From a virus (taxonomy: Duplodnaviria > Heunggongvirae > Uroviricota > Caudoviricetes), in the IMG/VR virus record IMGVR_UViG_2627854098_000004: a DNA stretch of 51,192 nt. One strand, written 5' to 3'. Below are positions 6,828-33,668 of the stretch, piece by piece. Position 1 is the first letter of the stretch, and the number at the start of each line of letters is the position of its first letter. Made by a program: the position numbers and the translations under genes. The notes beneath the pieces are model-generated. The model ran no database searches and was not told where the DNA came from. It saw nothing but the letters and a program-made list of their open reading frames with translations.

Positions 6828-9800
6828 TCAGCTAATCGTGATGCCTGCAGTGGCTTTCTTCATCACAACAACCAGCAAATCGCTGATACTTGCTGTGGGA
6901 TACCAGCCATTTACCCACCATGCTGATACAGAAAACTCCAGCGTCATGTCGCCGCGACCAGCAGGCATATCAATAACACCACTGTAAACCAGCGTATTAT
7001 CCATCGCGGTACGGTTATAAATTTCAGCACCGTTTTTCTTCACTATCAGGCGGCATGACGAATAAGTATCGCTGTTCTCCCGCTCATGTCTGGCACCGCT
7101 GAAAGCCACCGCCGGAATAACAATCTGCCGGTTAAACGGCTGATCGTCATAAACCCTGACGGTAATGGTTCCTGATGGCCAACGCTTCGGTGCACGGGAG
7201 TCACGAGGGAAAGCCTTACCCACTGTTTTAACGAGATCGCCTTCAATCTGGTTTGCAGACAGTTTCCCTCTGATGACACAGTTCTCGTTAATGGTGACAT
7301 TATTGAGCGTGCCGGTATTCGCCGTGATGGCTCCACTGATATCCGCATTGCGGGCTGTCAGCCTGCCATCCGGCGTCAGGGAAAACGTCGGAGGATTGCC
7401 GGATGACGTGATGCTCACCGCAAACAGTCGCTTCAGGAACACGTCGTTCATGAACAGCTGATTCCCCTGCGCCACAAACAGCGGCGTGGTGTTGCCGTTC
7501 TCCGGGGTAATCATCGCAATGCGATCGGCCTGCAGCAGAATGTTACTCAGGGTCTGACCATCAACATCCTCAATCCCCGCACCAATCCCGGCCACATAGG
7601 GAATACCGTTTTTTGTTTTCTGCACCTTCAGCATATACATGGCATTCAGCTCATTGCGCGTGTCTGACTGAACCCGCTGGATTTGCTGTATGGTCACGGC
7701 CTGGTCACCCAGCTTTTTATCCGTGGTCGAGGTAATTTCACTCCCTTTTTTATCCACGTACTGGCGGACCTGTGCTATCTGTCGGGCGTTTTCTGACTGC
7801 CCCTGGCTGACAGTCTGTGAGATTTCACTGCTCACCCGGTCCACTTTCTGGCTCACCTGCGCGATGGCCAGTGTCTGATCCTCATTCTTTTTCGCAACCA
7901 GCTGCGTGAGGCTGTTTTCCGCCTTCCCGATTTTCCGGGTCACTTCTGCGATATCCGTGTCCATCCGCTGACGGATATCTTCTTCCAGTTGCGTGACCTC
8001 CGTACGCAGCGCTGAAGCATCAATGCGCTCTTTCAGTGCCTGACCCAGAAGCGTCTCATCTATCAGCCCCCGGAAAATTTCCAGATACCCTTCACCATCA
8101 TTGCTGGGCTGCCCGCTGGCTTCCACAAAAGCAGATTTTCCCACCAGGTTGACGCTTCGCACGTAAAACCAGAAATCCGTTCCCGGCTTAATCCGGCTCC
8201 CCTGGACAGTCCACTGACTGCCGGTCCCCAGATAACGGGCAGATTTTTCCACCTGTGCTGTGTTCGTGATGCGTTTTTTCTGAGAACCAGAATTCAAACT
8301 GTACCGTCGGGTCATACACCGCAAGACGCGGGACCGCCGTTATCTGAAAATACCCCGGCGTCAGCTCAATGGTGGCGGGTTTTGCAGGTGCGTTAATCCG
8401 GAACGATACCGACGCCGGATCGCCCTGCTGTCCCCGGGCATTTACCGCCCGGACCGTCAGCGTGTAACGCCCCAGCGCCAGCTGCCTGAAGCGGTAAGTG
8501 GTTTCCGCCGTCCGGGCCGTGCTGACCAGCCGCTCACTGCCGTCATCCGCTGTTACGGTCAGACGGAGCAGGAAGCTCACGCCCTTCACCACCTTCGGCG
8601 TGTCCCAGCGCGCCAGCACCTGATATTCCCCGCTGTCTGCGGTGACTTCGGCGGTCAGGTGCTGCACCGCTGGCGGCGTGACACCATTCACCGTGCCGCT
8701 CTGGTCGCCGTCAAAGTGCGCTCCGTTATCCACGATGGCCTCTTTTTCCGGTACATGCTGCACGGCGGTGATGGCATACGTGCCGTCATCGTTCTCACGG
8801 ATACTCACGCAGCGGAACAGGCGCTGGCGCAACGTCGGCAGCTTCAGTCCCCATACGCTGTATTCTGCAACGCCGTCAGGAACACGGCTCACTTTTACCT
8901 TCACGCCGTCGGTGACGGACTGGACCTCCACGCTGACCGGATTCCCCTGTCCGTCAGCCAGGCTTATCAGCGTGGTGCCGGAGGATGGCAGCGTGATTTC
9001 ACGGTCGAGCGTCAGTGTCCGCGTCTGGTTGTTCACCGCCAGCACGCGCCCGCCGATGCTGATCCCCGCATAGTCATCATCACAGATTTCAATGACATCG
9101 CCCGGTACATGGCGAAGCCCTTCTGCACCCACGCTGAAGTCCACGGTCTGCGTTTCCAGCAGCTCCGTTTTAATCAGCCACAGCCCGGCGCGGTGTGCCT
9201 GCCCCCGGCTGGTACAGCCAAAGGCATCCATCTTCGTGACGTTACGACCGTAACGGGCAATGGCCTGCGTGTCCTCCACAAGCTCTGTCGCCGTCTCCCA
9301 GCCGTTATCCGGGTCAATCCAGTTCACCTCAACGGCATTATGGCGGTCTTTCAGGGCGCTGAAGCTGTAGCGGAACGGCGCGCCATCATCCGGCATCACC
9401 ACATTACTGCGGTTATAGGTCCACACCTTATCCGACGGTCGGTCCTGCACGAATGTCAGCGTCTGCCCGTTCCATACCGGCATACAGCGCATCGCCGAGC
9501 AAAAATCACTGAGCACATCCCACGCCTTGCGCTGTGTGGTCAGGTACGCATTACAGGTGATGCGCGGCTCCGTGCCGCCAAAGCCGTCCGGCACTGACTG
9601 GTCGCAATTCTGGCCGATGACATACAGCGCCCATTTATCCACATCTGCCGCACCAAGACGTTTCCCCATGCCGTAGCGCGGATGGGTCAGCATATCCCAC
9701 AGACACCAGGCCATGTTGTTGCTGTATGCTGGCTTAAACGTTCCGTCCCAGATACCGCTGTATTGCCGCGTCTGCGGGTTATAGTTCGACGGCACCTGCA

Positions 9801-10527
9801 GAATGCGCCCGCGAAGATGATAATTACGGCTCACCTGCTGGCTGCCGAACTGCTCCGAGTCCACCTGTACGCCGACCAGTGCCGTGTTCGGGTAGCACTG
9901 TTTCACATCGATGATTTCGGTGTATGACGACCAGAGCGTTTTGTTCTGCAACTGGTCTGTGGTGCTGTCCGGCGTCATCCTGCGCATCCGGATATTAAAC
10001 GGGCGCGGCGGCAGGTTATCCACCACCACCGAGGCCAGATACTGCGACGTGGTTTTGCCCTTAATGGTGATGTCTTTTTCCGTCACCCAGCCACCGTTAC
10101 GTTGAATCTGAACCAGCAGGCGGACTTCCGATGGATTCCTGTCCCCCTTTGAGGTGGTTTCCACCAGTGCCTGCACGCCGAAAGTAAAACGCAGACGGTC
10201 AATGTTTGCCGACGTGATGGTCCGGGTGATCGGCGTGTCATATTTCACTTCTGTACCGAGCACCGTCTCGGAGCCGGAGGATTCAAATCCCTCCGGCGGT
10301 GTCTGCTCCTGCTCACCGGCCCGGAACACCACCGTGACGCCGAATATATTGGTATTCCCCTCACTGTCCAGCACCGGCGTACTGTTCAGCAGCACGCTTT
10401 TTAATCCATCCACCGGACCTTCAACCGGCCCTTCGCTGATGGCGTCTATCACGCTCAGCATCTGGGATGATTTCAGGTTGTCCTTCGCTTCGCGCGGGGT
10501 ATGCCCCTTACTGCTGCCTTTACCCAT
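6828..10527 (-). pseudogene. J: tail tip/host-specificity protein J, split by a frameshift in a homopolymer at 8274-8279
   Basis: ORFs 8188..10527 (lambda J-like N-terminal 740 aa) and 6828..8324 (J C-terminal part) overlap; the reading frames join at the plus-strand T6 run 8274-8279 (A6 in the coding sense); removing one base restores [17 protein letters not shown]. Confidence 0.8.
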
Positions 10528-12606: not shown

Positions 12607-12935
12607 CAGTTCACCACCTGTTCAAACTCTGCGCTGAACTCAACACGCAGCATACTGACCCGCGACGACCATTTTGCGCAGGTCACCTTTATCTGCCGCC
12701 ACTCATAAGGCGGCGTCCACAGAAAGGCTTTCCAGCCCCCGTGCTCTTCCAGAAACAACTCCAGTACCGTGGCCTCCTCACGGGGGACAGAAAGCGTCAC
12801 GCTGTACGTTTTCAGGTTGGCATTCAGCCCGGCAGGCGCTCGCTGGGAATAGCCATCACCAAAGCGCACCTTTCTTACAGAAGGGACCGAAGCCACATCC
12901 ATACCGGGTTTCACTTTCCAGCGGAAGGTCTTCAT
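12606..12935 (-). CDS. M: tail tip assembly protein M
   Basis: 109 aa; near-identical to lambda gpM. Confidence 0.9.
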   Translation of the reverse strand: MKTFRWKVKPGMDVASVPSVRKVRFGDGYSQRAPAGLNANLKTYSVTLSVPREEATVLELFLEEHGGWKAFLWTPPYEWRQIKVTCAKWSSRVSMLRVEFSAEFEQVVN

Positions 12936-15496
12936 CGTCCACCTCCGGAGAACAGGCCACCATCACGCATCTGTGTCTGAATTTCATCACGGGCACCCTT
13001 GCGGGCCATGTCATACACTGCTTTCATCATCTGTGGACCTGGCAGACCATTCGTACCGTCGTTCTGAATCACCACGTTGTTGTTCTGCTCAAACCTGATA
13101 CCCTCTGAACGCCGCATTTGCGCCGGACTTCCGGTGCCACCGACATAACCGCCGGTGGCATAGCCGCGCATCAGCCGGTAGAGATTTCCCACGCCAATCC
13201 GGCTGGTTGCCTCCTTCGTGAAGACAAATTCACCACGGTGAACAATCCCCGCTGGCTCATATTTGCCGCCGGTTCCCGTAAATCCTCCGGTTGCAAAATG
13301 GAATTTCGCCGCAGCGGCCTGAATGGCTGTACCGCCTGACGCGGATGCGCCGCCACCAACAGCCCCGCCAATGGCGCTGCCGATACTCCCGACAATCCCC
13401 ACCATTGCCTGCTTAAGCAGAATTTCTGTCATCATGGACAGCACGGAACGGGTGAAGCTGCGCCAGTTCTGCTCACTGCCGGTCAGCATCGCCGCCATAT
13501 TCTGTGCAATACCATCAAAGGTCTGCGTGGCTGCACTTTTAACCTGCGACATACTGTCCGTGGCGCTCTCTTCCCACTCACTCCAGCCGGACTTCAGGCC
13601 TGCCATCCAGTTCCCGCGAAGCTGGTCTTCAGCCGCCCAGGTCTTTTTCTGCTCTGACATGACGTTATTCAGCGCCAGCGGATTATCGCCATACTGTTCC
13701 TTCAGGCGCTGTTCTGTGGCTTCCCGCGCTGCCTGCCGGTCAGTCAGCCCCCGGTTTTTCGCATCAATGGCGGCCCGTTTTGCCCGTTGCTGCTGTGCGA
13801 ATTTATCCGCCTGCTGCGCCAGCGCGTTCAGGCGCTCCTGATACGTAACCTTGTCGCCAAGTGCAGCCAGCTGGCGTTTGTACTCCAGCGTCTCATCTTT
13901 ATGCGCCAGCAGGGATTTCTCCTGTGCAGACAGCTGGCGACGTTGCGCCGCCTCCTCCAGTACCGCGAACTGACTCTCCGCCTTCCACAAATCCCGGCGC
14001 TGCTGGCTGATTTTCTCATTCGCTCCGGCATGCTTCTCCAGCGTCCGGAGTTCTGCCTGAAGCGTCAGCAGGGCAGCATGAGCACTGTCTTCCTGACGAT
14101 CGCCCGCAGACACCTTCACGCCGGACTGTTTCGGCGTTTTTCAGCGTCGCTTCATTAATCCTTTTTCGCCGCCGCCATCAGCGTGTTGTAATCCGCCTGC
14201 AGGATTTTCCCGTCTTTCAGTGCCTTATTCAGTTCTTCCTGACGGGCGGTATATTTCTCCAGCGGCGTCTGCAGCCGTTCGTAAGCCTTCTGCGCCTCTT
14301 CGGTATATTTCAGCCGTGACGCTTCGGTATCGCTCTGCTGCTGCGCATTTTTGTCCTGTTGAGTCTGCTGCTCAGCCTTCTTTCGGGCGGCTTCAAGCGC
14401 AAGACGGGCCTTTTCACGATCATCCCAGTAACGCGCCCGCGCTTCATCGTTAACAAAATAATCATCCTTGCGCAGATTCCAGATGTCGTCTGCTTTCTTA
14501 AACGCAGCCTCTGCCTTAATCAGCATCTCCTGCGCGGTATCAGGACGACCAATATCCAGCACCGCATCCCACATGGATTTGAATGCCCGCGCTGTCCTGT
14601 CTGCCCAGGTCTCCAGCGTGCCCATGTTCTCTTTCAGGCGGCGGGTCTGGTCATCAAACCCTTTCGTCGCGGCCTCGTTCGCCGCCTGCAATGCCCCGGC
14701 CTCTTCGCCGGAACGCTGCAACTGAGCAACATACGCAATCTGCTCCGCCGTCACGTTATGGAACTGGCGCGCCATCGCTGTCAGCCCCGACGTCGGGTCA
14801 GTGGTCAGCTTCCCGAAGGCTTCAGCGACCTTGTCCACCTCCACGCCGGATGCAGAGGAGAAACGCGCCACACTCTGGCTGATGGACGCAATCTGAGCCT
14901 CACCGCTTACCCCCGCCTTAACCAGTGCGCTGAGTGACTCGCTGGTCTGGTTAAACGTCAGCCCTGCCGCCTGCCCGGCTCTGGACAGGACCAGCATGCG
15001 ATCTGCCGTCAGACCCGACTGATTGCCGGAAAGGACCAGCGTTTTGTTGAAATCGGACAGGGTTGAGTTGCCCTGATACCAGGCATACGCCAGCGCACCG
15101 GTCGCCACCGCCAGCGAGGTGGCCCCCACCATCGGCAGGGTGATCGCACCGGCAAGCCCCCTGAACATGGGGATCATCCCGCCGAAGGAGTCCTTAACCT
15201 GACCACCCTGTTGCAGCAGGATCAGCCACGGACTTTGCCCGCCTGCAAGCTGCGTGGCCACGTCGGTGAACTGTGCAGGCAGCATACGCATGGCGGCTTT
15301 ATACTGCCCGACGGAAATCCCCGCTTTCTGTGCAGCCAGCGCCTGTCGGCCTCAGCGACTGTTCAACGACTGCCGCTGTTTTTTTCGCATCACTTTCCGT
15401 ACCGGAAAAATGACGCCTGACTCTGGCCATCTGCTCGTCAAATCTGGCCGCATCCAGACTTAAATCAACGACCAGATCGCCTACCGGTTCAGCCAT
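12932..15496 (-). pseudogene. H: tape measure protein H, broken into three ORFs by three +1 insertions
   Basis: ORFs 15299..15496 (H N-terminus, 65 aa), 14155..15291 (378 aa) and 12932..14119 (395 aa) are colinear with lambda gpH (853 aa); span is 2565 nt against 2562 expected; first and last ORFs share a frame, the middle 1.2 kb is +1. Confidence 0.8.
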
Positions 15497-18072: not shown

Positions 18073-18426
18073 TCAGCGGCGACGGCTGGCGGCAGGTGGT
18101 TGCCCCCGGTTGAGCCAGAGATAACAACTCCCTCCGTCATCCGGAGAAACACGGTCCACCCAGAACATCTCGCCGTTAATGGTCAGCGTGTCACCACGCC
18201 GTACAGCACAAACCGTATCCGTAAGCACAAATAATGACGGGTTACTTCCTTCAATACGGATCCCACTACTGGCAAAACCCAGCGACTCCGGATCGTCAAA
18301 AACGCCATGAACCTCGCCGCCACGCTGTGCACCGGAGGTGAACTGCGCACTGATGCCCATCACTTCAACAATCGTACTGTCCACCCCGGCAAGGGCGGCA
18401 TCAAAGGCATTCTGAAAATCACGCAT
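18073..18426 (-). CDS. FII: head-tail joining protein FII
   Basis: ORF 18073..18462; lambda-like start MRDFQNAFDAA at 18426. Confidence 0.85.
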   Translation of the reverse strand: MRDFQNAFDAALAGVDSTIVEVMGISAQFTSGAQRGGEVHGVFDDPESLGFASSGIRIEGSNPSLFVLTDTVCAVRRGDTLTINGEMFWVDRVSPDDGGSCYLWLNRGQPPAASRRR

Positions 18427-18793
18427 AAACAGCCATTCCACCATCAACGTGTGTTTTTGCATCTGAGGACATAATCAGAATCACCCGACCAACATCCGCA
18501 AGCTCAACGGATTCCCCCGTTTCACCATCAACGCCACAGAGATGGAGGCAGGTCAGAACTCTGATGCGCGTTAACGCGCCGGATGTTTCCTCACGAACAT
18601 CATGAGCCGCGGTTTCCCGCTCCCGGATATCCATATTCATAACCTGTACATCATCGCCGGATGACTGCATTTCCTCTTCCCATTCTGCCACCCGCTGCGC
18701 TATCTCTGCGGCACTCCCGGATATATCCGGCTCACGCCCCAGAATCAGGGCCAGTTCATCAAGCCGTTTCAGATTTTGCTCTTTCGTTGCCAT
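18419..18793 (-). CDS. FI: DNA packaging protein FI
   Basis: ORF 18419..18841; start ATG 18793 (MATKEQNLKRL) with RBS AGGGGG. Confidence 0.75.
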   Translation of the reverse strand: MATKEQNLKRLDELALILGREPDISGSAAEIAQRVAEWEEEMQSSGDDVQVMNMDIRERETAAHDVREETSGALTRIRVLTCLHLCGVDGETGESVELADVGRVILIMSSDAKTHVDGGMAVYA

Positions 18794-18806
18794 ATCAGCC
18801 CCCTGT

Positions 18807-18836
18807 GAAAAAAGACACGGGGGCATTTCGCCCCCG
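18807..18836 (-). terminator. hairpin plus U-run between E and FI (possible partial terminator after the major capsid gene)
   Basis: On the - strand CGGGGGC-GAAAT-GCCCCCG followed by TGTCTTTTTTC. Confidence 0.45.
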
Positions 18837-18844
18837 CTCACGGA

Positions 18845-19873
18845 TTATTTCACCTGTACCACCACAAACTCATCCGGGTCCGGCAACACCATCAGCGGCG
18901 CGGACTGCGTCATGGTAAATTCACGGGCGGGATCCCCTACCGTCAGCCAGTGTTTCGGATAACGGGAAGAGGCCACCACACCTTCGGACAACGCCTGAGC
19001 ATCCTGAATGGCACCGTAACAACGGATCCCATCTGCAGCAGTATTCCCCAGAACCAGCATGCCATCTGGAAGATAACGTTTTTCGATACCGTCTTCTGCT
19101 ATATAAGACGTTTTCGCCACCACAATGGCCAGATCGCCGTAATACCCCTTGAAGGACACCACTGCGCCCAGATCTTTCACTGCCGTTTCGAGTTGAGAAT
19201 TTGAACCGCGACGGGTATCCAGTTTTTCGCGGAACAGCTTAAAACCATTCAGAAGACGCCAGACGGTACCGTCCATAATGGCAATATTCACAAGACCGCT
19301 GGCCAGGTCGCAGTAGAGGTCAATATCATGTGTAGGATCGAACGTGTCACGATCCTGTTTTGACCACTCCTTACCACTACCCTGAGTGATGTTATTCTTC
19401 GTCGACCTGCCAAAATCGACCTCAATTTTCTCGAACTGGTCTCCTTCCATGGTGTATTTGCCATACAACACAGCATTTACCGCCTGCATTTCTTCCACCT
19501 GGACAATCGCGTGCTCTTCCTGTTTGAGGTTATCGGTAATGATACGCAGACGGCGGTAAGCCGGATCATTCAGTTGAGATGGATCTTCACCAGGAAGGCG
19601 CTCAACCGCCTGCTGGTAATTAAATTCGTGTTTCGGCTTGACGTAGCCCGGACGCAACACGCGGGTTTCACCACCACGATGACGCAGCACTTTTCCTTCA
19701 ACAACCGGGGAGACATAGGCCGCCACCGGCGTTTTTCCGGTAATTTTGTCCAGCATCACCTCTTCGGTATGGAAATTCACCGTACGGCGGAAAAACAGCT
19801 CCAGAAACAGCGCACGAAATTTAACTTTTTGTTCGGTATAACCGAGTAACTGGCGGGTCGTAAACAATCCCAT
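18845..19873 (-). CDS. E: major capsid protein E
   Basis: 342 aa; near-identical to lambda gpE. Confidence 0.9.
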   Translation of the reverse strand: MGLFTTRQLLGYTEQKVKFRALFLELFFRRTVNFHTEEVMLDKITGKTPVAAYVSPVVEGKVLRHRGGETRVLRPGYVKPKHEFNYQQAVERLPGEDPSQLNDPAYRRLRIITDNLKQEEHAIVQVEEMQAVNAVLYGKYTMEGDQFEKIEVDFGRSTKNNITQGSGKEWSKQDRDTFDPTHDIDLYCDLASGLVNIAIMDGTVWRLLNGFKLFREKLDTRRGSNSQLETAVKDLGAVVSFKGYYGDLAIVVAKTSYIAEDGIEKRYLPDGMLVLGNTAADGIRCYGAIQDAQALSEGVVASSRYPKHWLTVGDPAREFTMTQSAPLMVLPDPDEFVVVQVK

Positions 19874-19930
19874 AAATCAGTTCCTTTCATTCAGAAATCA
19901 GTCAGGCCACCGCGGTGGCCTGATAACGTG

Positions 19931-20278
19931 TTACGGCAGCGCCGCGTGACTCAGGGCACTGCCAGCAAAGGCGTTGGCCTTTTTGTGTTCATCCACACTT
20001 TCAGGCCAGTGGATTGCCTCCGTCGCAAAGGTTCCCGACTTGTAATACGTCAGCGCCGTCTCTGTGCCTTCAAGCGGCAGTACCAGTATGCCAACCGCAC
20101 TACCGGCTTTCTGTCCGTCCCAGACCACCAGTTTCCCGGTGGCTTCATCCAGCATCAGGGGCGTCAGTGCCGGTGTTGGCGAGGAAATCCCGCTGCTGCC
20201 TGTGGCGGTATGAGCCGGATCATTACCGGCAAAAATACGTACTTCCGCACGCTGTTCAGTGATGGTTTTCGTCACCAT
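19931..20278 (-). CDS. D: head decoration protein D
   Basis: 115 aa; lambda gpD-like (NDPAHTAT, YKSGTF motifs). Confidence 0.85.
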   Translation of the reverse strand: MVTKTITEQRAEVRIFAGNDPAHTATGSSGISSPTPALTPLMLDEATGKLVVWDGQKAGSAVGILVLPLEGTETALTYYKSGTFATEAIHWPESVDEHKKANAFAGSALSHAALP

Positions 20279-20314
20279 ATTGTAAAAACCTCCTATTGAT
20301 GGTCAGCACTGACT

Positions 20315-21820
20315 TCATGGCATGGCCATGAGCATTTTCACGTCCGCATCACCGTCTGCTGACGTCTGTGCCACGCCACCCTGTACCGCTGCCGGTGAAT
20401 GGTTCGCCATGAAATGTTCAAACATGGCGGTTGTGGATGCAGAGACCGGTTCTGCCTTACCTGATCCCGCAGCCAGCACAGCCCGGGCGCTCTCCACTGT
20501 CATTCCCGGGCAGGCAGCCAGCTGTTCAGCCTGCGCCTCAGCCCCTTTTGCCTCATCCAGTGCCATGATCTGATCACGGAGTGATGGTCCGGCATCCGCC
20601 TGCGGTGAAGCAGCCAGGATCGGGCGGGCTTTTTCCACCGTCATCTCCGGCATCGCCGCCAGCGTTGCCGCCAGTTGTTCACGACCGTTCGCTTCTTCAC
20701 ACACCATAATGCGATCGGCTTCACTCTGCGTGGATGCCACCGGCTGCTGCGGTGCCGCCGCGGCCAGAATCGCCCGGGCCTGTTCAACGCTCATGCCCTG
20801 TTGTCCTGCCAGCATCGTGGCAAGCTGTTCACGTCCTTTCGCTTCCTGGCATGTCAGGATCCCCATCACTCGCTGGTTCTCCTGCGCGGCGGCTTCCGTT
20901 GCAGTTAATTGCGGCATAGTGCCTCCTCTGACATTACTGTTCAGCGCCGTGGCCATCACACTGATGGCATCCGACGCATTGATTAATTCATCCGCCAGCC
21001 CGGCCTCAATGCCGGACTGACCTTCAAAAACGGCAGCCTCTGTTCCCGTGACGGCATCAACAGACAGACCGGTATACATCGCCACTTTTTCGGCAAACAT
21101 CCGGCGCGCCGCATCAATCCGCTGCTGCATGTCCTGGCGAACCTCTGCCGGCAACGCTTCAAACTGATTGCCATCCACCTTGTGCGCCCCTGAGTAAATC
21201 AGCGTGATATCCACACCGGCCTGCGCCAGATGACCGGCATAGCTGACATGGCTCATCATCACGCCAATGGAGCCGATACGGGATGTCTGGGTAACCAGCC
21301 GTCGGGAGCAGGCCGACGCCAGCAGCATGGCTGCAGAACAGGCCGTGTCATTGCACAGTGCCCAGACCGGCTTCTGCTGACGGAGGCGGTAAATCATGTC
21401 AGCGCAGTCAAACGCGCCGGCGGCCTGCCCGCCCGGACTGTCAATGTCCAGCAGTACGCCCCGCACCTGGCTATCCGCCATTGCCTGCTGAAGACAGGCG
21501 ACAATGCCGTCATAGCCTGTCATTCCGGAAAATGGCCGCATACCACCCAGCCGGTGCACCAGTGTGCCGGTCACCGGCAGTACAGCAATACCGTTCACCA
21601 CCCGGTAAACACGGGCCGGTCGTTTACCTCCGGCCATGTACTCGTCCGTTTCAGCCAGCATTCCGGGAGCATCAAACTGTACCTGCTGTTGTGGTACCGA
21701 AAGACTTGCTGCCCCCATCTCGCGCCCGAGCGCGCAAAAGAAAACCCGCGCATAGGCGGGCTCCAGAAGCAGCGGTTCATTGAATGCTGCGGCAATAATG
21801 TGTGAAAGATTACGTCTCAC
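20315..21820 (-). CDS. C: head protease/scaffold protein C (S49/SppA-like) with a triplicated C-terminal repeat
   Basis: 501 aa; DSPGG serine-protease motif; the C-terminal part carries three tandem degenerate copies of about 40-45 aa (EAKGREQLA...MSVEQARAILAA). Confidence 0.8.
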   Translation of the reverse strand: MRRNLSHIIAAAFNEPLLLEPAYARVFFCALGREMGAASLSVPQQQVQFDAPGMLAETDEYMAGGKRPARVYRVVNGIAVLPVTGTLVHRLGGMRPFSGMTGYDGIVACLQQAMADSQVRGVLLDIDSPGGQAAGAFDCADMIYRLRQQKPVWALCNDTACSAAMLLASACSRRLVTQTSRIGSIGVMMSHVSYAGHLAQAGVDITLIYSGAHKVDGNQFEALPAEVRQDMQQRIDAARRMFAEKVAMYTGLSVDAVTGTEAAVFEGQSGIEAGLADELINASDAISVMATALNSNVRGGTMPQLTATEAAAQENQRVMGILTCQEAKGREQLATMLAGQQGMSVEQARAILAAAAPQQPVASTQSEADRIMVCEEANGREQLAATLAAMPEMTVEKARPILAASPQADAGPSLRDQIMALDEAKGAEAQAEQLAACPGMTVESARAVLAAGSGKAEPVSASTTAMFEHFMANHSPAAVQGGVAQTSADGDADVKMLMAMP

Positions 21821-23402
21821 GTGGTGTTGTCTCCTCTTCCGGCCTACGACTCTCCGCTATCTGCTGCTGATACGCCTGCTCTATCCACACCGGACGTGAG
21901 AGTCCGGCTTTTTGCCGCTCAGCAGATTCCCTGACCTGCTGGCGGAAAATGTCCTGATAATCCTCGCCCATCAGCGCCAGCTCTTTCTCATACGTGCTCA
22001 GTCCGGCCTCAATGCGCATCACTGATTCCTGGACTTCCTTGAGCCCGTCAATGGCCATTCTTCCGGCACCAATCCACTCTGCCCGTGACCAGGCTGATCG
22101 CGCCTGATAAAAATCAAAACGTGCCCGTGGCGGACGAATAATCCCCCGAAGAAGTGCCTCTTCCAGCCAGCAGGAAAACATCTGCGTGGCCAGCCGGGCC
22201 GCAATAAATTTTCGCCGCCCCATAAAATAGCGCCACGACTCATTGGCGGAGGCGCGGGCACTTGAGTAACTGACCTTCGAGTAATCACGGGACAACTGTT
22301 CGTAGGAAACGCCAAGACCGGCGGCGATATACCGCAGCAGCGCCTGTTCAAGCGCAGAAAATCCATTGTCTGAATCCTGCGCAGTCTGTAGTTTCAGATC
22401 ATCACCAGGGAAAAGGTGCGGAATTTTGACACCGCCCAGTGTCACGTTATTCGTGTCATACCAGCTGGAAAACTTCTCCAGAATATTAATAAGCGGATTA
22501 TCCTTCTGCTCCTGTGGCGCGCCGGCGATATATTCAAAGGCCTTTTCGGTATCAAGTTCACTTTCAATCGTCGCTGCATACATCGCCTTCACTATGGCCG
22601 ACTGAAGCTGTGTTGCCTGCAGGGAATCGAGCATCTTCAGCCGTTCCATGACGCTGTAAAACTGATTAGCCCCACGGGTCTGCCCGTCCTCCACCGGCTC
22701 GAAAATATGCAGCATGGCCGGACGCCCGGTGGGAAGTTCACGCGGGATCCGTTCCCATCGTCCACTACCAGAGAACGGAAAATCATCCTCACAGATATGG
22801 TACGCGACGGCACGGCCATATCGATCGACCTCCACACCGGCCCGCAGAAAACGGTTCCCCATACCGTGTCCAGGCGTGTCCACCCGTTTCGGACTCACGG
22901 CTTTAAAACGCGTACGGAATAACTGCGTGGTTTCCGTATCCCAGACCGGCTGCACAAAGATTTCGCCGTTAAACGCATGAACGCCCACACCTTCACGGAT
23001 AAATTCCGTGAACGTGCGTTTTCCTTCCACGTCGATCTCGCCAAACATCCCTTCGGCGTATTCCGACCAGGCCGCCTCCACCTCATCGACAAAGCTTTTT
23101 GCTGCGGTCTCCCGCATCCCCAGCCAGCGCCAGTTCGGACGGTAGCTGATCAGAAACATATGCCCGACAATGTGATCCTTATGCAGAGCCACCGCATTAG
23201 CCGCTATTCCGTTATTGCGCACCAGATCATCTGCCCGGGCATTCCCCAGACGCAACGCGGGCAGCAGGGCCGCATCGGCACTCTGCGCCGGTGGCAACCA
23301 CTCAGCCATTTGCCCGCCAAATCCTGCACCGCCCCCGTTGTAGCTGAGACTCTCACGAAGCGGAACGCCGTTCACATCAATCAGGACAGGCGTTCGTTTC
23401 AT
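21810..23402 (-). CDS. B: portal protein B
   Basis: ORF 21810..23432; start MKRTPVLIDVNGVPL at 23402 in an ATGA overlap with the W stop; near-identical to lambda gpB. Confidence 0.9.
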   Translation of the reverse strand: MKRTPVLIDVNGVPLRESLSYNGGGAGFGGQMAEWLPPAQSADAALLPALRLGNARADDLVRNNGIAANAVALHKDHIVGHMFLISYRPNWRWLGMRETAAKSFVDEVEAAWSEYAEGMFGEIDVEGKRTFTEFIREGVGVHAFNGEIFVQPVWDTETTQLFRTRFKAVSPKRVDTPGHGMGNRFLRAGVEVDRYGRAVAYHICEDDFPFSGSGRWERIPRELPTGRPAMLHIFEPVEDGQTRGANQFYSVMERLKMLDSLQATQLQSAIVKAMYAATIESELDTEKAFEYIAGAPQEQKDNPLINILEKFSSWYDTNNVTLGGVKIPHLFPGDDLKLQTAQDSDNGFSALEQALLRYIAAGLGVSYEQLSRDYSKVSYSSARASANESWRYFMGRRKFIAARLATQMFSCWLEEALLRGIIRPPRARFDFYQARSAWSRAEWIGAGRMAIDGLKEVQESVMRIEAGLSTYEKELALMGEDYQDIFRQQVRESAERQKAGLSRPVWIEQAYQQQIAESRRPEEETTPRET

Positions 23403-23605
23403 AACCTCACTCCCAGCGGACGACGGCGACACCGGGTTGTCCCCAGTACCGACTCCGCATCATTGATCGCCCGGTTAAGCTCATCCAGAGAAGCCGCCGT
23501 ATATTCAATTCTGCGACCATCTTTCTGGACAGACACCACCCGTTTACCGGTTAATAAATCAAGGCGCGCCTGACGCAGCGCCTGCAGTTCAGCGACTGTA
23601 ACCAT
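23399..23605 (-). CDS. W: head-tail joining protein W
   Basis: 68 aa; lambda gpW-like. Confidence 0.85.
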   Translation of the reverse strand: MVTVAELQALRQARLDLLTGKRVVSVQKDGRRIEYTAASLDELNRAINDAESVLGTTRCRRRPLGVRL

Positions 23606-25517
23606 TCACTCCTCCGGACAGCTTCGCTGCCAGTTCTTTAAGGGTTGGCCGGGTCGTCTCTTCTTCCCGGGATTTTGCCAGTACAGCCAGATCAAGCTGC
23701 CAGCGTTGCACGGACACACGTAATGCCGCGTAGGCATACACCAGGCAGTCCAGCGCTTCGTTACGCCGCTTTTTGTTATCCCACAGCAGACGCATCTTTC
23801 CTTTTTCCCACTTCTCCACAAGCTCTTCCGCGACCAGTTGCTGCGCCTCTGTCTGCGAAAAAATCTCCGGATCATCAGGAAAACGGATAGCATACGACGT
23901 GGCTTCATCCACAGGCGTGGGATCGGCTTTCATACGGGCATAGAGAATTTCTTTTGCGGTGTCCGTCCCCACTTCACACAGATACACGCCCCGCTGATTG
24001 CGGGTTTTTGGCATGGTGATCACCGGCTTGCCATAGACAGATGCGCCTTTTACCGGCAGCACCCGGAAAACACCGTGTTTTTTTGACCTCTGATAAACGA
24101 TTTCGCCATCGATCCCCCCGATGTCCCAGCAGACACGGGAAATGGTCATTTCGGTTCCGTCTGCATGGCGGTATTTTTTGTTGATCGCCGCATCCACACG
24201 TAACAGCGTCTCTTCCTCATCGGGACGCCCCATAATGATGATTTTATCCACCAGAAAGGCTTCCTCTCCCGGAGCCCATCCCCAGACATACATCTCAAAA
24301 CGGTTTCGCTGCGAGTCAATGCCCGCCGTCAGATAAACCACCCGGGCAGGCACCGCCGCCGTGTAACGCACAACCTTATCCATCAGCACCTGGTGATCGA
24401 GTTTTTCGCCCACAGCCTCTTCCCAGGTCTCGCCCAGCGTGGTGTTCACAAAGGTTTTCAGGCCGTTGGGATCTTTCAGTGCATCCAGCCAGTCATAGAC
24501 AATCTGTACCCAGGTGGTGAACGGACTGTACGCCGTCCAGATATGGAAAGTGATGGAGCGCGGCGGCGGAATTTCATCACCCCGGGCGCTGAAAAACATC
24601 AGGCCGTCACGGGTCCACATGCCCGTGTTTTCACAGATCCACCGCCCGTTACTCTGGTCAAGCTCAGACTGATGGATCACACAGCCATGATGCTCACAAA
24701 GGTAGAAAACACTTTCTGGCTTATTCTTCTCCCACTTAAGACCGAAAGGCGAGGCATCATCGCCAAATTTCAGATACTGCTCCTCCCCACAGTGCGGACA
24801 GGGCACATAAAAACGCATGAAGTGTGCCGACTCGTTAGCGGCTTTTTCGATCTGGCAGGAGCCTTTGATTTTAGGCGTCGAGCCGCGAATGGATTTTGGC
24901 CATACAGAGCCCTCAATACGTTTATCCCCCAGCAGGGTTGGCGAACCCTCTTTTTCAACATCCGGTTCGAACGAGGAAAGCTCGTCATAACAGACCACAT
25001 CCACGGATTTTTCACGGTAGTTTTTTGCTGCCGCACCACCCAGACACCAGAACCCCACACCGGAGGAAAAACGCTTCAGGGTGAGCGTATTATCGCGGTG
25101 TTTTCTTCCGAACCATGGAGCCAGCTCCAGCAATGCAGGAACATCCCTTATCGTTGGCTCAACATGAGATTTCATAAAATCTTCAGCAGCTGAGTCCGTG
25201 GGCTGAAAAAGAAGGCTGTTGCGTGATTTATGCTCAATAAAATAAGCCTCCACTCCCAGCAACATCTTTGTATAACCAACACGGGCAGATTTAATCAGGT
25301 TAACCGTGCGAATCAGATCGTTGCCCATACAGTTCATGATGCCAACCTGAAACGGCAGTGTTTCCCATCGCCCCGGGGTATAAGACGACTCTTTAGGAAG
25401 GTAATAATGTTTATTGGCCCACTGAACTGTCGTCAGTGGAACAGGAATAATGAGAGATAAAAGCCCTGTAGCTATCGCACCGGCTGCATTAGCTGCCTTC
25501 TGCGCGTCTGAAATCAT
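23589..25517 (-). CDS. A: terminase large subunit A
   Basis: ORF 23589..25559; likely start ATG 25517 overlapping the end of Nu1 as in lambda; lambda gpA-like throughout. Confidence 0.9.
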
Positions 25518-26219: not shown

Positions 26220-26897
26220 ATGTCCATCATTTTTAATGGACACTATCGTATGAAACACCGGACCTGGATCACTGAAGCTTTACGTCTTCACTTTGAAGAA
26301 CATTTACCCCGGGTTGTGGCCGGGCGTCGCCTGGGTGTACCAAAATCAACAGTTTGTAGTATGTTCGTGCGCTTTCGGAGAGCTGGCCTTTCGTGGCCTT
26401 TGCCCGCAGGCATGTCGGAGCAGGAACTTGATGCCTGCCTTTACGGACAATTTTCCACGGTACCAGTCGTACGTCCTGAAAGCACCGTTATATCCGAAGC
26501 CCCCGTGGTAAAAAAACGTCCCCGGCGGCCCAACTTCCCTTATGAGTTTAAAATCGCCTTAGTGGAGCAGTCACTGCAGCCCGGAGCCTGTGTGGCGCAG
26601 ATCGCCCGGGAAAACGGAATCAACGATAACCTGCTCTTCAACTGGCGCCATCAATACCGGAAAGGTGGCCTGCTGCCTTCCGGAAAAAATATGCCGGCAC
26701 TGCTTCCCGTGACGTTAACGCCGGAGCCGGATAATAAAATCCCGGCCCCCGCACAGGAACCAGAGCAGATAAATACACCGTCCGACAGTCTGTGTTGTGA
26801 GCTGGTTCTGCCGGCCGGAACTCTCAGGCTTAAAGGTAAACTGACGCCGGCGTTATTACAGACACTTATCCGCGAAATAAAAGGGAGCAGCCACTGA
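26220..26897 (+). CDS. IS66-family accessory protein TnpA (start uncertain)
   Basis: ORF has an IS66 orf1-like C-terminal part (PNFPYEFKIALVEQSL...LLFNWRHQYRKG); the N-terminal extension may not be translated. Confidence 0.6.
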   Translation: MSIIFNGHYRMKHRTWITEALRLHFEEHLPRVVAGRRLGVPKSTVCSMFVRFRRAGLSWPLPAGMSEQELDACLYGQFSTVPVVRPESTVISEAPVVKKRPRRPNFPYEFKIALVEQSLQPGACVAQIARENGINDNLLFNWRHQYRKGGLLPSGKNMPALLPVTLTPEPDNKIPAPAQEPEQINTPSDSLCCELVLPAGTLRLKGKLTPALLQTLIREIKGSSH

Positions 26898-27244
26898 TGA
26901 TATCTCTCCCTGCAGGTTCGCGTATCTGGCTGGTTGCAGGTATCACCGATATGCGAAATGGCTTTAACGGCCTGGCATCAAAAGTTCAGAACGTCCTGAA
27001 GGATGACCCGTTCTCCGGACACCTGTTCATCTTCCGCGGACGCCGGGGTGACCAGATAAAAGTGTTGTGGGCTGACAGTGACGGACTGTGCCTCTTCACC
27101 AAACGCCTGGAGCGGGGCCGCTTCGTCTGGCCAGTCACCCGTGACGGCAAGGTGCACCTTACTCCGGCTCAGTTATCCATGCTTCTTGAAGGTATCAACT
27201 GGAAGCACCCGAAACGAACGGAACGCGCTGGAATCCGCATATAA
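26897..27244 (+). CDS. IS66-family TnpB
   Basis: 115 aa; [27 protein letters not shown] signature. Confidence 0.85.
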   Translation: MISLPAGSRIWLVAGITDMRNGFNGLASKVQNVLKDDPFSGHLFIFRGRRGDQIKVLWADSDGLCLFTKRLERGRFVWPVTRDGKVHLTPAQLSMLLEGINWKHPKRTERAGIRI

Positions 27245-27263
27245 CCCGTTGTAAAGTGAGGAT

Positions 27264-28835
27264 ATGGACACCTCACTTGCTCATGAGAACGCCCGCCTGC
27301 GGGCACTGTTGCAGACGCAACAGGACACCATCCGCCAGATGGCTGAATACAACCGCCTGCTCTCACAGCGGGTGGCGGCTTATGCTTCCGAAATCAACCG
27401 GCTGAAGGCGCTGGTTGCGAAACTGCAACGTATGCAGTTCGGTAAAAGCTCAGAAAAACTTCGTGCAAAAACCGAACGGCAGATACAGGAAGCACAGGAG
27501 CGAATCAGCGCACTTCAGGAAGAAATGGCGGAAACGCTGGGTGAGCAATATGACCCGGTACTGCCATCCGCCCTGCGCCAGTCTTCAGCCCGTAAACCGT
27601 TACCGGCCTCACTTCCCCGTGAAACCCGGGTTATCCGGCCGGAAGAGGAATGCTGTCCTGCCTGTGGTGGTGAACTCAGTTCTCTGGGATGTGATGTGTC
27701 AGAGCAACTGGAGCTTATCAGCAGCGCCTTTAAGGTTATCGAAACACAACGTCCGAAACAGGCCTGTTGCCGGTGCGACCATATCGTGCAGGCACCAGTA
27801 CCTTCAAAACCCATTGCACGCAGTTATGCCGGAGCGGGGCTTCTGGCCCATGTTGTCACCGGGAAATATGCAGACCATCTGCCGTTATACCGCCAGTCAG
27901 AAATATACCGTCGTCAGGGAGTGGAGCTGAGCCGTGCCACACTGGGGCGCTGGACAGGTGCTGTTGCTGAACTGCTGGAGCCGCTGTATGACGTCCTGCG
28001 CCAGTATGTGCTGATGCCCGGTAAAGTCCATGCTGATGATATCCCCGTCCCGGTCCAGGAGCCGGGCAGCGGTAAAACCCGGACAGCCCGGCTGTGGGTC
28101 TACGTCCGTGATGACCGTAACGCCGGTTCACAGATGCCCCCGGCGGTCTGGTTCGCGTACAGTCCGGACCGGAAAGGTATCCATCCACAAAATCACCTGG
28201 CCGGTTACAGCGGTGTGCTTCAGGCCGATGCTTACGGTGGTTACCGGGCGTTATACGAATCCGGCAGAATAACGGAAGCCGCGTGTATGGCTCATGCCCG
28301 GAGAAAAATCCACGATGTGCATGCAAGAGCGCCCACCTACATCACCACGGAAGCCCTGCAGCGTATCGGTGAACTGTATGCCATCGAGGCAGAGGTCCGG
28401 GGCTGTTCAGCAGAACAGCGTCTGGCGGCAAGAAAAGCCAGAGCCGCGCCACTGATGCAGTCACTGTATGACTGGATACAGCAACAGATGAAAACACTGT
28501 CGCGTCACTCAGATACGGCAAAAGCGTTCGCATACCTGCTGAAACAGTGGGATGCACTGAACGTGTACTGCAGTAATGGCTGGGTGGAAATCGACAACAA
28601 CATCGCAGAGAACGCCTTACGGGGAGTGGCCGTAGGCCGGAAAAACTGGATGTTCGCGGGTTCCGACAGCGGTGGTGAACATGCGGCGGTGTTGTACTCG
28701 CTGATCGGCACATGCCGTCTGAACAATGTGGAGCCAGAAAAGTGGCTGCGTTACGTCATTGAACATATCCAGGACTGGCCGGCAAACCGGGTACGCGATC
28801 TGTTGCCCTGGAAAGTTGATCTGAGCTCTCAGTAA
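27264..28835 (+). CDS. IS66-family transposase TnpC
   Basis: 523 aa; zinc-ribbon CxxC...CxxC and IS66 transposase core. Confidence 0.85.
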
Positions 28836-30501: not shown

Positions 30502-30795
30502 ATGAAAAAAATGTTGTTTTCTGCCGCTCTGGCAATGCTTATTACAGGATGTGCTCAACAGACGTTTACTGTTGGAAACAAACCTACAGCAGTAACACCA
30601 AAGGAAACCATCACCCATCATTTCTTCGTTTCGGGAATTGGGCAGAAGAAAACTGTCGATGCAGCAAAAATTTGTGGTGGTGCAGAAAATGTTGTTAAAA
30701 CAGAAACCCAGCAAACATTCGTAAATGGATTGCTCGGTTTTATTACTTTAGGCATTTATACTCCGCTGGAAGCGCGTGTGTATTGCTCACAATAA
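30502..30795 (+). CDS. bor: Bor lipoprotein (serum-resistance family)
   Basis: Start MKKMLFSAALAMLITGCAQQ; near-identical to lambda Bor; opposite strand to the lysis genes as in lambda. Confidence 0.9.
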   Translation: MKKMLFSAALAMLITGCAQQTFTVGNKPTAVTPKETITHHFFVSGIGQKKTVDAAKICGGAENVVKTETQQTFVNGLLGFITLGIYTPLEARVYCSQ

Positions 30796-32585: not shown

Positions 32586-33668
32586 ATGAAAAAATTAACA
32601 GTGGCAATTTCTGCTGTAGCTGCATCAGTACTGATGGCGATGTCTGCTCAGGCAGCTGAAATTTATAATAAAGACAGTAACAAGCTGGATCTATACGGGA
32701 AAGTTAATGCCAAGCACTACTTCTCCTCTAATGATGCAGATGATGGTGATACTACTTATGCCCGTCTTGGCTTCAAAGGTGAAACCCAAATCAACGATCA
32801 ACTGACTGGTTTCGGTCAGTGGGAATATGAATTCAAAGGCAACCGTGCTGAATCTCAAGGTTCTTCCAAAGACAAAACCCGTCTTGCATTTGCAGGCCTG
32901 AAATTTGGTGATTACGGCTCAATCGATTACGGCCGTAACTACGGTGTAGCATACGACATCGGTGCGTGGACTGACGTTCTGCCAGAATTCGGTGGTGATA
33001 CCTGGACCCAAACAGATGTGTTCATGACTGGTCGCACTACTGGTGTTGCAACTTATCGTAACAACGACTTCTTTGGTCTGGTCGATGGCCTGAACTTTGC
33101 TGCTCAGTATCAGGGTAAAAATGACCGCACTGACGTAACTGAAGCCAATGGTGATGGTTTCGGTTTCTCCACTACTTATGAGTATGAAGGATTCGGCGTG
33201 GGTGCAACCTATGCTAAATCAGATCGCACTGACGGTCAGGTCGCCTATGGTAAGAGCAAATTCAATGCCTCCGGCAAAAATGCGGAAGTATGGGCTGCAG
33301 GCCTGAAATATGATGCGAACAATATCTATCTGGCTACCACATATTCTGAAACTCAGAATATGACCGTTTTTGGTAATAACCATATTGCAAACAAAGCACA
33401 AAACTTTGAAGCAGTAGCACAATATCAGTTTGACTTCGGTCTGCGTCCATCTGTTGCTTACCTTCAGTCAAAAGGTAAAGACCTTGGTGTTCATGGTGAC
33501 CGAGACTTAGTCAAGTATGTCGATGTCGGTGCTACTTACTACTTTAATAAAAACATGTCCACTTTTGTTGATTACAAAATCAACTTAATTGACGATAGTA
33601 AGTTTACCAAAACAGCTGGTATTGATACCGACGACATCGTCGCTGTAGGTCTGGTTTATCAGTTCTAA
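32586..33668 (+). CDS. phage-borne general porin (OmpC/OmpF/NmpC-Lc family)
   Basis: ORF 32526..33668; start ATG 32586 with RBS AAGGG; signal peptide ...AMSAQA then AEIYNKD, C-terminal F; between Q and S on the opposite strand, as for nmpC in DLP12. Confidence 0.9.

What the first reader, a model, noticed from the sequence alone, without database searches (positions are those of the whole stretch)
20440..20900. Tandem triplication of a 40-45 aa motif in the scaffold-like C-terminal part of head protein C
The C-terminal region of the 501-aa C protein has three consecutive degenerate copies of (R/D)IM...(C/D)EA(K/N)G(R/A)EQLA..LA..P(G/E)M(S/T)VE.AR.ILAA, visible at DNA level as roughly 120-nt repeats (for example ctgttcacg(a/t)cc(g/t)ttcgcttc). 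Lambda C, as I recall it, has one copy of this motif. Repeat expansion in a scaffolding domain could change procapsid assembly, or mark a recombination-prone site.
Basis: partly seen in the sequence, partly recalled or inferred. Interest (0 to 1): 0.35.

Follow-up and report, generated by a model that had tools for sequence, protein, structure and literature searches.

The report
Phage 21 scaffold "Tri box" triplication
The three-fold repeat is real, but it is the "Tri box" triplication annotated decades ago in the prohead protease/scaffold gene of phage 21, an old and conserved protein-level repeat rather than a new expansion.

Summary
Observation confirmed. The 501-aa S49 prohead protease gene (window 20315-21820, minus strand) carries three consecutive copies of a ~42-aa unit. 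They lie at aa 314-358, 367-409 and 414-455 (window 20456-20881). Pairwise scores are 12-15 SD above shuffles. Lambda C and phi80 gpC have one copy.

It is already known. The gene is 99.8% identical to phage 21 gene 5, and GenBank M81255 annotates exactly these stretches as Tri1, Tri and Tri3 boxes ("function unknown") inside the nested scaffold gene 6.

The triplication is old and acts at the protein level. Units share only 53-66% of nucleotides and 37-41% of third codon positions. Salmonella Gifsy-1 has the same three orthologous units. dN/dS for R2 and R3 is 0.10-0.24.

One copy is the family norm (96 of 122 diverse relatives). At least 1814 of 5426 complete E. coli genomes keep the intact three-unit form. 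Microhomology deletions are uncommon (56, 1 and 0 genomes).

New here: a sister prophage lineage has 2-5 near-identical units, with the four-unit gene in 105 complete genomes. Module number across the family therefore ranges from 1 to 5.

The likely role is a repeated three-helix scaffold interaction module. This is inferred, not shown. Interest is low.

The parts
20315..21820 (-). Gene for the 501-aa S49 prohead protease with a C-terminal scaffold region (phage 21 gene 5, the lambda C analogue)
   Evidence: ORF. Peptidase_S49 domain at aa 146-293, E 3.7e-35. 99.8% aa identity to M81255 gene 5. 100% nt identity to E. coli APEC IMT5155.
20315..20917 (-). Nested in-frame scaffold gene (phage 21 gene 6, the lambda Nu3 analogue), 200 aa, starting at Met302 of the long protein
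   Evidence: Annotated in M81255. The ATG is preceded by GAGGAGG, in the context GTAATGTCAGAGGAGGCACTATG. The product is 100% identical to phage 21 gp6. Expression was not tested here.
20924..20928 (-). Putative ribosome-binding site for the nested gene 6
   Evidence: M81255 feature 5464-5468 mapped to the window. The sequence was seen.
20747..20881 (-). Repeat unit R1 (aa 314-358). It is the orthologue of the single unit of lambda and phi80 and shares their RVMGIL..C form. The GenBank 'Tri1 box' maps to window 20747-20850.
20594..20722 (-). Repeat unit R2 (aa 367-409). The GenBank 'Tri box' maps to window 20600-20710.
   Evidence: dN/dS of 0.10 against Gifsy-1.
20456..20581 (-). Repeat unit R3 (aa 414-455). 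The GenBank 'Tri3 box' maps to window 20456-20569.
   Evidence: dN/dS of 0.24 against Gifsy-1.
20318..20455 (-). C-terminal tail of about 46-50 aa after the last unit, with two predicted helices. A tail of similar length (median 53 aa) follows the motif in single-copy relatives.

Best explanation
This is the known 'Tri box' triplication of phage 21 head genes 5 and 6, sitting in a phage-21-type prophage of E. coli. The long product (501 aa) is an S49 serine prohead protease. The short nested product (200 aa, from Met302) is the scaffolding protein. Both share a C-terminal region built of three tandem copies of a ~42-aa module, followed by a ~50-aa tail.

The module is the conserved element that follows the protease domain in lambda-C-like proteins, where it normally occurs once. 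In an ancestor of the phage 21 / Gifsy-1 head lineage, two extra copies were added downstream of the original unit. All three have since been kept by purifying selection on the protein.

Inferred mechanism: each unit folds as a small, independent three-helix module joined by flexible Pro/Gln/Ala/Ser linkers. The units act as repeated interaction sites of the scaffold, either self-association or contact with the major capsid protein or portal. Because the protease carries the same C-terminus, it is co-assembled into the prohead. It then degrades the scaffold and itself, as described for lambda C/Nu3.

Three copies instead of one would raise the valency and length of the scaffold without changing the kind of capsid made.
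For: Identity with phage 21 and existing annotation: (window 18258-24820 is 99.95% identical to M81255).

Reality of the repeat.

Ancient origin and protein-level selection:
- Unit pairs share 53-66% nt, 45-61% aa and 37-41% of third positions.
- Gifsy-1 and many Salmonella, E. coli, Klebsiella and Edwardsiella relatives have orthologous R1, R2 and R3.
- Orthologous units are more alike (0.59-0.74) than paralogous ones (0.52-0.59).
- dN/dS is 0.10 for R2 and 0.24 for R3, against 0.13 for the protease domain. For R1, pN is 0.146 and pS is 0.776.

The module is the family's conserved post-protease element. Among the 150 best 50%-identity representatives, 96 of 122 full-length proteins have exactly one copy and only one has three. 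The motif starts at a median of aa 346 and is followed by a ~53-aa tail.

Scaffold context: the unit matches PHROG families annotated as head scaffolding, capsid assembly and head maturation protease.

Structure: in the AlphaFold2 model each unit forms three short helices at pLDDT about 66-76. The linkers are below 50 and pTM is 0.24, so no fixed arrangement between units is predicted.

Conservation in nature: at least 1814 of 5426 complete E. coli genomes hold an intact R1-R2-R3 segment. All 19 phage-collection records of the phage 21 type, plus Gifsy-1, match the full 200-aa product.

Lambda Nu3 is reported to interact with itself, C, E and B (PMC3224144).
Against: No experiment or solved structure shows what the unit binds. 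PDB sequence and fold searches found nothing. The model is of low to moderate confidence (mean pLDDT 62).

A half-unit deletion allele (482 aa) occurs in 56 complete genomes, and its exact protein sequence is on record in 3592 blocks of the assembly index. Full three-fold integrity may therefore not be essential, or those prophages may be defective.

The original paper describing the Tri boxes could not be read, so anything its authors proposed is unknown to me.
Confidence: 0.85

Rival explanations
1. A recent repeat expansion or unstable, recombination-prone array specific to this prophage.
For: In-frame length variants exist among close relatives, with junctions at 5-8 nt microhomologies in register with the repeat. 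The forms are 451, 452, 472 and 482 aa. A sister lineage has 2-5 units that are 80-93% nt identical.
Against: The units in this window share only 53-66% of nucleotides and 37-41% of third positions. TRF finds no array. The same three orthologous units occur in Gifsy-1 and many other lineages. The window gene is 100% identical to a complete E. coli chromosome and 99.8% to the phage 21 protein sequenced decades ago. Among 5426 complete genomes, the intact form is in at least 1814, against 56, 1 and 0 for the three deletion junctions tested.
Confidence: 0.05
2. The 'boxes' act at the DNA or RNA level, for example as protein-binding sites, a recombination signal or a translational control element for gene 6, and the protein repeat is a by-product.
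For: GenBank calls them repeat_region 'boxes' with unknown function. They lie just downstream of the internal start of gene 6.
Against: Conservation is in amino acids, not nucleotides. Third-position identity between units is 37-41%, while aa identity is 45-61%. Between phage 21 type and Gifsy-1, synonymous sites are near saturation (pS 0.63-0.78) while pN is 0.15-0.27. The longest shared DNA word family is 12 nt.
Confidence: 0.03
3. The extra units are only a spacer. They supply length or mass to the scaffold, with no specific binding by R2 and R3, replacing the long low-complexity linker that lambda has before its single unit.
For: Phage 21 gp6 (200 aa) and lambda Nu3 (201 aa) are the same size although they start at different points in the long gene (aa 302 against aa 239). 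In phage 21 the linker before R1 is about 22 aa, against about 65 aa in lambda. A half-unit deletion allele is widespread.
Against: R2 and R3 keep the motif's conserved residues (E-A-x-G, L-A, M-T, A, L-A-A) across lineages that are 46-80% identical. Their dN/dS is as low as that of the protease domain. A pure spacer would drift like the inter-unit linkers and the tail (dN/dS 0.33-0.66 for the longer ones). phi80 gp6 is annotated at only 137 aa, so a scaffold length of about 200 aa is not universal.
Confidence: 0.1
4. Chance resemblance caused by the Ala/Gln/Glu-rich composition of the region.
For: The region is compositionally biased and GC-rich. TRF does not call it.
Against: Composition-preserving shuffles never reach the observed scores (0 of 2000, z of 12-15). 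An HMM of the unit finds exactly three hits here and one in lambda, each at about 76-82 bits.
Confidence: 0.01

Closest known systems
Phage 21 genes 5 and 6 with Tri1, Tri and Tri3 boxes (GenBank M81255.1; complete genome OL657228.1)
   Same: This is essentially the same sequence. The protein is 99.8% identical, gp6 is 100% identical, and there are 3 mismatches in 6563 nt of the head operon. The three annotated boxes map onto R1, R2 and R3.
   Different: Nothing in the repeat differs. Here the genes sit in a chromosomal prophage of E. coli (100% identical to APEC IMT5155) that carries an IS66 insertion and several frameshifted tail and replication genes.
Lambda C / Nu3 (J02459) and phi80 gpC / gp6
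   Same: They share the S49 protease, the nested in-frame scaffold gene, the position between the portal and decoration/major capsid genes, and the same conserved unit followed by a ~40-aa tail. R1 is the orthologue of their single unit.
   Different: They have one unit instead of three and a longer low-complexity linker before it. The nested start lies at a different position (lambda aa 239; phi80 about aa 311). The protease part is only about 54% identical.
Gifsy-1 STM2605 and other Salmonella, Klebsiella and Edwardsiella prophage S49 peptidases of about 495-513 aa
   Same: They have three units, each orthologous to R1, R2 or R3, with the same order and a similar tail length.
   Different: They are 46-80% identical in the scaffold region. 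Salmonella R3 keeps G-R-E, where the E. coli form has G-A-E.
Sister lineage of 538-aa S49 peptidases in E. coli, E. marmotae, E. albertii, Citrobacter, Salmonella and Cronobacter prophages (for example L045-L049, P0342, P0350)
   Same: The gene type and module are the same. The first unit is of R1 type and the downstream units are of the 'QIMAL.EAKGRE' type.
   Different: They carry 2, 3, 4 (most common) or 5 units with an exact 46-aa period. Units are 80-93% nt identical, which points to recent duplication or gene conversion. The four-unit gene is present in 105 of 5426 complete E. coli genomes. No close match (best 68% identity) was found in the phage collection.
Other nested protease/scaffold gene pairs (herpesvirus UL26/UL26.5, P2 gpO, Mu I/Z) and the helix-turn-helix coat-binding domain of the P22 scaffolding protein
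   Same: From general knowledge and by analogy only. A shared C-terminus brings the protease into the procapsid with the scaffold, and small helical modules of scaffolds bind the coat protein.
   Different: No sequence or fold similarity was detected here. I know of no tandem multiplication of the binding module in those systems.

Membership tests
Lambda-like S49 prohead protease with nested scaffold (lambda C/Nu3, phage 21 gp5/gp6) | Peptidase S49 (SppA-like) domain in the N-terminal two thirds | tested here: met
   PF01343 at aa 146-293, 121.6 bits against a cut-off of 24.9. Ser162 and Lys214 are invariant in an alignment of 28 diverse relatives. I identify these two residues as the catalytic pair from memory of the family, not from a test here.
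Lambda-like S49 prohead protease with nested scaffold (lambda C/Nu3, phage 21 gp5/gp6) | In-frame internal start with a ribosome-binding site that yields a shorter scaffold protein sharing the C-terminus | tested here: met
   ATG at window 20917 is preceded by GAGGAGG and is annotated as gene 6 in M81255. Actual translation of the short product is not testable with these tools.
Lambda-like S49 prohead protease with nested scaffold (lambda C/Nu3, phage 21 gp5/gp6) | Gene order of portal, then protease/scaffold, then decoration protein, then major capsid protein | tested here: met
   ORFs, with matching annotations.
Lambda-like S49 prohead protease with nested scaffold (lambda C/Nu3, phage 21 gp5/gp6) | Conserved ~42-aa unit (R.RI..IL...EA.GRE.LA..LA....M[ST]vE.A...LA) after the protease domain, followed by a ~50-aa tail | tested here: met
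   Three hits here and one in lambda and phi80. Present in 97 of 122 diverse relatives. Tail lengths are given.
Lambda-like S49 prohead protease with nested scaffold (lambda C/Nu3, phage 21 gp5/gp6) | Protease cleaves the scaffold, itself and the portal during prohead maturation | not testable with these tools
   Known for lambda from the literature (listed in PMC3224144).
Phage 21 'Tri box' triplication | Three repeat boxes at the annotated positions within gene 6 | tested here: met
   M81255 features 5542-5645, 5682-5792 and 5823-5936 map to window 20747-20850, 20600-20710 and 20456-20569, inside R1, R2 and R3.
Recent DNA tandem repeat (VNTR-like array) | Head-to-tail copies with high nucleotide identity, detectable as a tandem array | tested here: not met
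   TRF finds nothing in 19000-22000 apart from an unrelated 12-nt repeat. Units are 53-66% nt identical. This feature is met in the sister 538-aa lineage instead.
Helix-hairpin-helix motif (Pfam PF00633) | Score above the Pfam gathering threshold | tested here: not met
   13.0 bits against a cut-off of 24, E of 0.097, for R3 only.

The most novel reading that the evidence does not exclude
The number of scaffold modules (1 in lambda and phi80; 3 in phage 21 and Gifsy-1; 2-5 in a sister E. coli/Citrobacter/Salmonella/Cronobacter prophage lineage where units are still 80-93% nt identical) may be an evolvable parameter. It would set the valency or reach of the internal scaffold and of the tethered protease. 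On this reading the natural allelic series, including the 482-aa half-unit deletion found in 56 complete genomes, consists of functional variants rather than decay products. It would be a ready-made system for testing how scaffold valency controls T=7 procapsid assembly. I found no description of this copy-number series in the papers I could search.
Probability: 0.3. Interest if true: 0.4.

Novelty: already known. Interest (0 to 1): 0.18.

Why it matters
For this window it matters little. The feature is the annotated Tri-box triplication of phage 21 genes 5 and 6, present unchanged in a common E. coli prophage.

The wider survey adds one modest point of use to people who study capsid assembly. 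The conserved module that follows the S49 prohead protease, whose partner is still undefined even in lambda, occurs in 1 to 5 tandem copies in otherwise similar lambda-like head gene sets. Each copy is under purifying selection. This marks the module as the functional core of the Nu3-type scaffold and offers natural variants for testing what it binds.

Tried and rejected
- Tandem Repeats Finder on 19000-22000 found no array, because the copies are too diverged.
- A sequence search of the PDB with gp6 gave only a chance hit at E 1.7. Foldseek of the AlphaFold2 model against the PDB gave nothing below E 0.8, and the model confidence is low.
- Pfam has no family for the unit. There is a sub-threshold HHH hit only.
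- Six literature searches found no paper in the held library that discusses the Tri boxes or the motif. One search was badly framed, with min_terms of 1. The Medina 2011 gpNu3 paper (PMC3247018) is not held. The paper behind M81255 could not be read.
- The 100-nt junction probes against E. coli genomes were uninformative. The tool joins the two half-matches of three-unit genes into one 'place'. I replaced them with 46-48-nt probes whose halves fall below the 28-nt seed length.
- The four-unit 551-aa forms of the phage 21 type (P0002, P0003) both come from one assembly project and carry an N at the junction codon. I treat them as doubtful.
- A genome-contig scan for close relatives of the 538-aa lineage found none at high identity, because that collection holds one genome per species. 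The phage collection holds no close match to that lineage.
- I considered a second structure job on the full-length protein and dropped it, because the tool returns no inter-domain confidence.

Full report
**What is there.** The minus-strand ORF at window 20315-21820 encodes a 501-aa protein. It has a Peptidase_S49 domain at aa 146-293 (E 3.7e-35). The gene lies between a portal gene and genes for a 115-aa decoration protein and a 342-aa major capsid protein.

The C-terminal third contains three consecutive copies of a ~42-aa unit. R1 is aa 314-358 (window 20747-20881), R2 is aa 367-409 (20594-20722) and R3 is aa 414-455 (20456-20581). Sixteen columns are invariant among the three units. Pairwise local alignment scores of 87-101 compare with 25-27 +/- 5 for composition-preserving shuffles. 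That gives z of 12-15, with 0 of 2000 shuffles reaching the observed score.

The period is 141-159 nt rather than about 120 nt. The DNA copies are too diverged for Tandem Repeats Finder.

**It is already annotated.** A tblastn search of phage records gives 99.8% identity over all 501 aa to gene 5 of phage 21 (M81255.1). The features under that match include a 'Tri1 box', a 'Tri box' and a 'Tri3 box'. The record annotates them as repeat_region, 'function unknown; putative'. They lie inside gene 6, the in-frame nested scaffold gene analogous to lambda Nu3.

Window 18258-24820 differs from that 6563-nt stretch at 3 positions. Mapped to the window, the boxes fall at 20747-20850, 20600-20710 and 20456-20569, inside R1, R2 and R3. 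The nested start is the ATG at window 20917, preceded by GAGGAGG. Its 200-aa product is 100% identical to phage 21 gp6.

Window 315-41820 is 100% identical to a lambdoid prophage in the chromosome of E. coli APEC IMT5155.

**Lambda and the ancestral state.** An HMM of the unit finds one copy in lambda C (aa 357-400) and one in phi80 gpC. I ran a phmmer search of 1.84 billion 50%-identity representatives and counted units with an iterated HMM. Of the 122 full-length proteins among the best 150, 96 have exactly one unit, 25 have none detectable, and only one has three.

In single-unit proteins the unit starts at a median of aa 346 and is followed by a tail of median 53 aa. The window protein has a 50-aa tail after R3. 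One copy is therefore the family norm.

**The triplication is old and selected at the protein level.**
- Unit pairs share 53-66% of nucleotides, 45-61% of residues and only 37-41% of third codon positions.
- Salmonella Gifsy-1 has three units, each recognisably orthologous to R1, R2 or R3.
- So do many Salmonella, E. coli, Klebsiella and Edwardsiella relatives that are 46-80% identical.
- Across nine three-unit lineages, orthologous units are more alike (R1 0.74, R2 0.65, R3 0.59) than paralogous ones (0.52-0.59). The triplication therefore predates the clade, and the units have not been homogenised.
- R1 shares the RVMGIL..C form with the single unit of lambda and phi80, so the extra units were added downstream.
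- Between the window gene and Gifsy-1, dN/dS is 0.13 for the protease domain, 0.10 for R2, 0.24 for R3 and 0.33 for the tail. For R1, pN is 0.146 against a saturated pS of 0.776.

This pattern argues against a DNA- or RNA-level role for the 'boxes' and against mere spacer function.

**Stability and variants in nature.** The gene type occurs in 2032 of 5426 complete E. coli genomes, and 1866 cover at least 80% of it. A 198-nt probe centred on R2 with both linkers is at least 80% covered in 1814 genomes. All 19 phage-21-type records in the phage collection, plus Gifsy-1, match the full 200-aa product.

Close relatives include in-frame length variants:
- 451 aa: an R1/R2 hybrid followed by R3.
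- 452 aa: R1 followed by R3.
- 472 and 482 aa: half of R2 missing.

At the DNA level the junctions lie at 5-8 nt microhomologies (GAAGCGAA, CACCGCAG, CTGGCnGC) in register with the repeat.

Short junction-specific probes (design) find the 482-aa junction in 56 complete genomes, the 452-aa junction in one, and the 451-aa junction in none. The exact 482-aa protein is nevertheless on record in 3592 blocks of the wider assembly index.

The 551-aa 'four-unit' forms of this lineage come from one assembly project and carry an N at the junction codon, so I treat them as doubtful. A 657-aa form with a 156-aa internal duplication is in one complete genome, CP007136.1.

**A sister lineage with a dynamic array.** A scan of IMG/VR with an alignment of diverse relatives returned 80 loci. 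Of these, 40 have one unit, 33 have three, 2 have two and 5 have four.

The four-unit genes (538 aa, about 60% identical to the window protein) have an exact 46-aa period. Units 2-4 share 80-93% of nucleotides. In L045, units 2 and 3 share 95% of third positions. This indicates recent duplication or gene conversion.

A protein search with this form and a unit count show four units as the common state. Two of these clusters have 470 and 826 member sequences, and the hosts named are E. coli, E. marmotae, E. albertii, Citrobacter and Salmonella. Three units occur in the 492-aa forms, including one from Cronobacter. Five units occur in the 568- and 578-aa forms from E. coli.

The four-unit gene is at least 80% covered in 105 of 5426 complete E. 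coli genomes, with several 100% matches. No close match exists in the phage collection.

In every array the first unit is of R1 type and the later ones are of 'QIMAL.EAKGRE' type. Across lambda-like head gene sets the module number therefore ranges from 1 to 5. I found no account of this in the searchable literature.

**How it probably works (inference).** An AlphaFold2 model of gp6, built from a 17-sequence alignment, has low to moderate confidence (mean pLDDT 62, pTM 0.24). Each unit forms three short helices at pLDDT about 66-76. The inter-unit linkers fall below 50, and two further helices lie in the tail. This fits independent small helical modules on flexible linkers.

The unit matches PHROG families annotated as head scaffolding protein, capsid assembly protein (the Nu3 family) and head maturation protease. 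For lambda, interactions of Nu3 with itself, C, E and B have been reported (PMC3224144).

The most economical reading has three parts. The unit is the interaction module of the Nu3-type scaffold. Its presence on both the scaffold and the protease co-targets the protease into the prohead. Three copies raise valency and length. The binding partner is not known, and no solved structure resembles the unit.

**Verdict.** The feature is the long-annotated Tri-box triplication of phage 21, ancient and stable in this lineage, so it is not novel. The only addition of some interest is the 1-to-5 copy-number series across related prophages. Overall interest is low.

Noticed in passing
window 315-41820: This stretch is 100% identical to a lambdoid prophage in the E. 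coli APEC IMT5155 chromosome (NZ_CP005930.1 4112269-4153774, reverse orientation). Its head operon is phage 21's, with 3 mismatches in 6563 nt.
   Followed up: partly
window ~26220-28835 (IS66/ISCro1), ~12932-15496 (tape measure), ~6828-10527 (gpJ): In the identical RefSeq region an IS66-family element sits between the lysis genes and the terminase. The tape-measure, J, K-like C40 peptidase and replication O genes are annotated as frameshifted. The prophage is probably defective. Coordinates were converted from L012 and not re-checked base by base.
   Followed up: no
window ~30502-30795 and ~32586-33668: The prophage carries iss (increased serum survival lipoprotein) and an ompC-like porin gene next to the lysis cassette, according to the RefSeq annotation of the identical region.
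   Followed up: no
L011 301-2274 (CP007136.1, protein P0001): A 657-aa allele has a 156-aa in-frame tandem duplication. It runs from the end of the S49 domain through the gene-6 start, R1, R2 and half of R3, in a complete E. coli genome. Whether it is real or an assembly error was not resolved.
   Followed up: partly
proteins P0080, P0084, P0336, P0382: In several database entries the C-type gene is fused in frame, just after or within the last unit, to tail-fibre-like or baseplate-like sequence. These look like deletion fusions in decayed prophages.
   Followed up: no
L001 2633-3238 (lambda nu3); L002 3904-4506 (phage 21 gene 6); L005 1357-1770 (phi80 gene 6): The nested scaffold start is not at a conserved position. 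Lambda Nu3 (201 aa) starts at C residue 239, inside the end of the S49 domain. Phage 21 gp6 (200 aa) starts at residue 302. phi80 gp6 is annotated at 137 aa. Lambda and phage 21 scaffolds are almost equal in length despite different make-up.
   Followed up: no
window 20675-21020, + strand: Three antisense ORFs of 61-103 aa overlap the repeat region. They are most likely by-products of the GC-rich, Ala-rich coding strand, and nothing suggests they are genes.
   Followed up: no
L045-L050 (IMG/VR) and P0340-P0381: A sister lineage of S49 protease/scaffold genes has 2-5 nearly identical 46-aa units. In some alleles (P0379, P0381) the linkers are also almost identical, which suggests ongoing gene conversion or very recent amplification.
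   Followed up: partly
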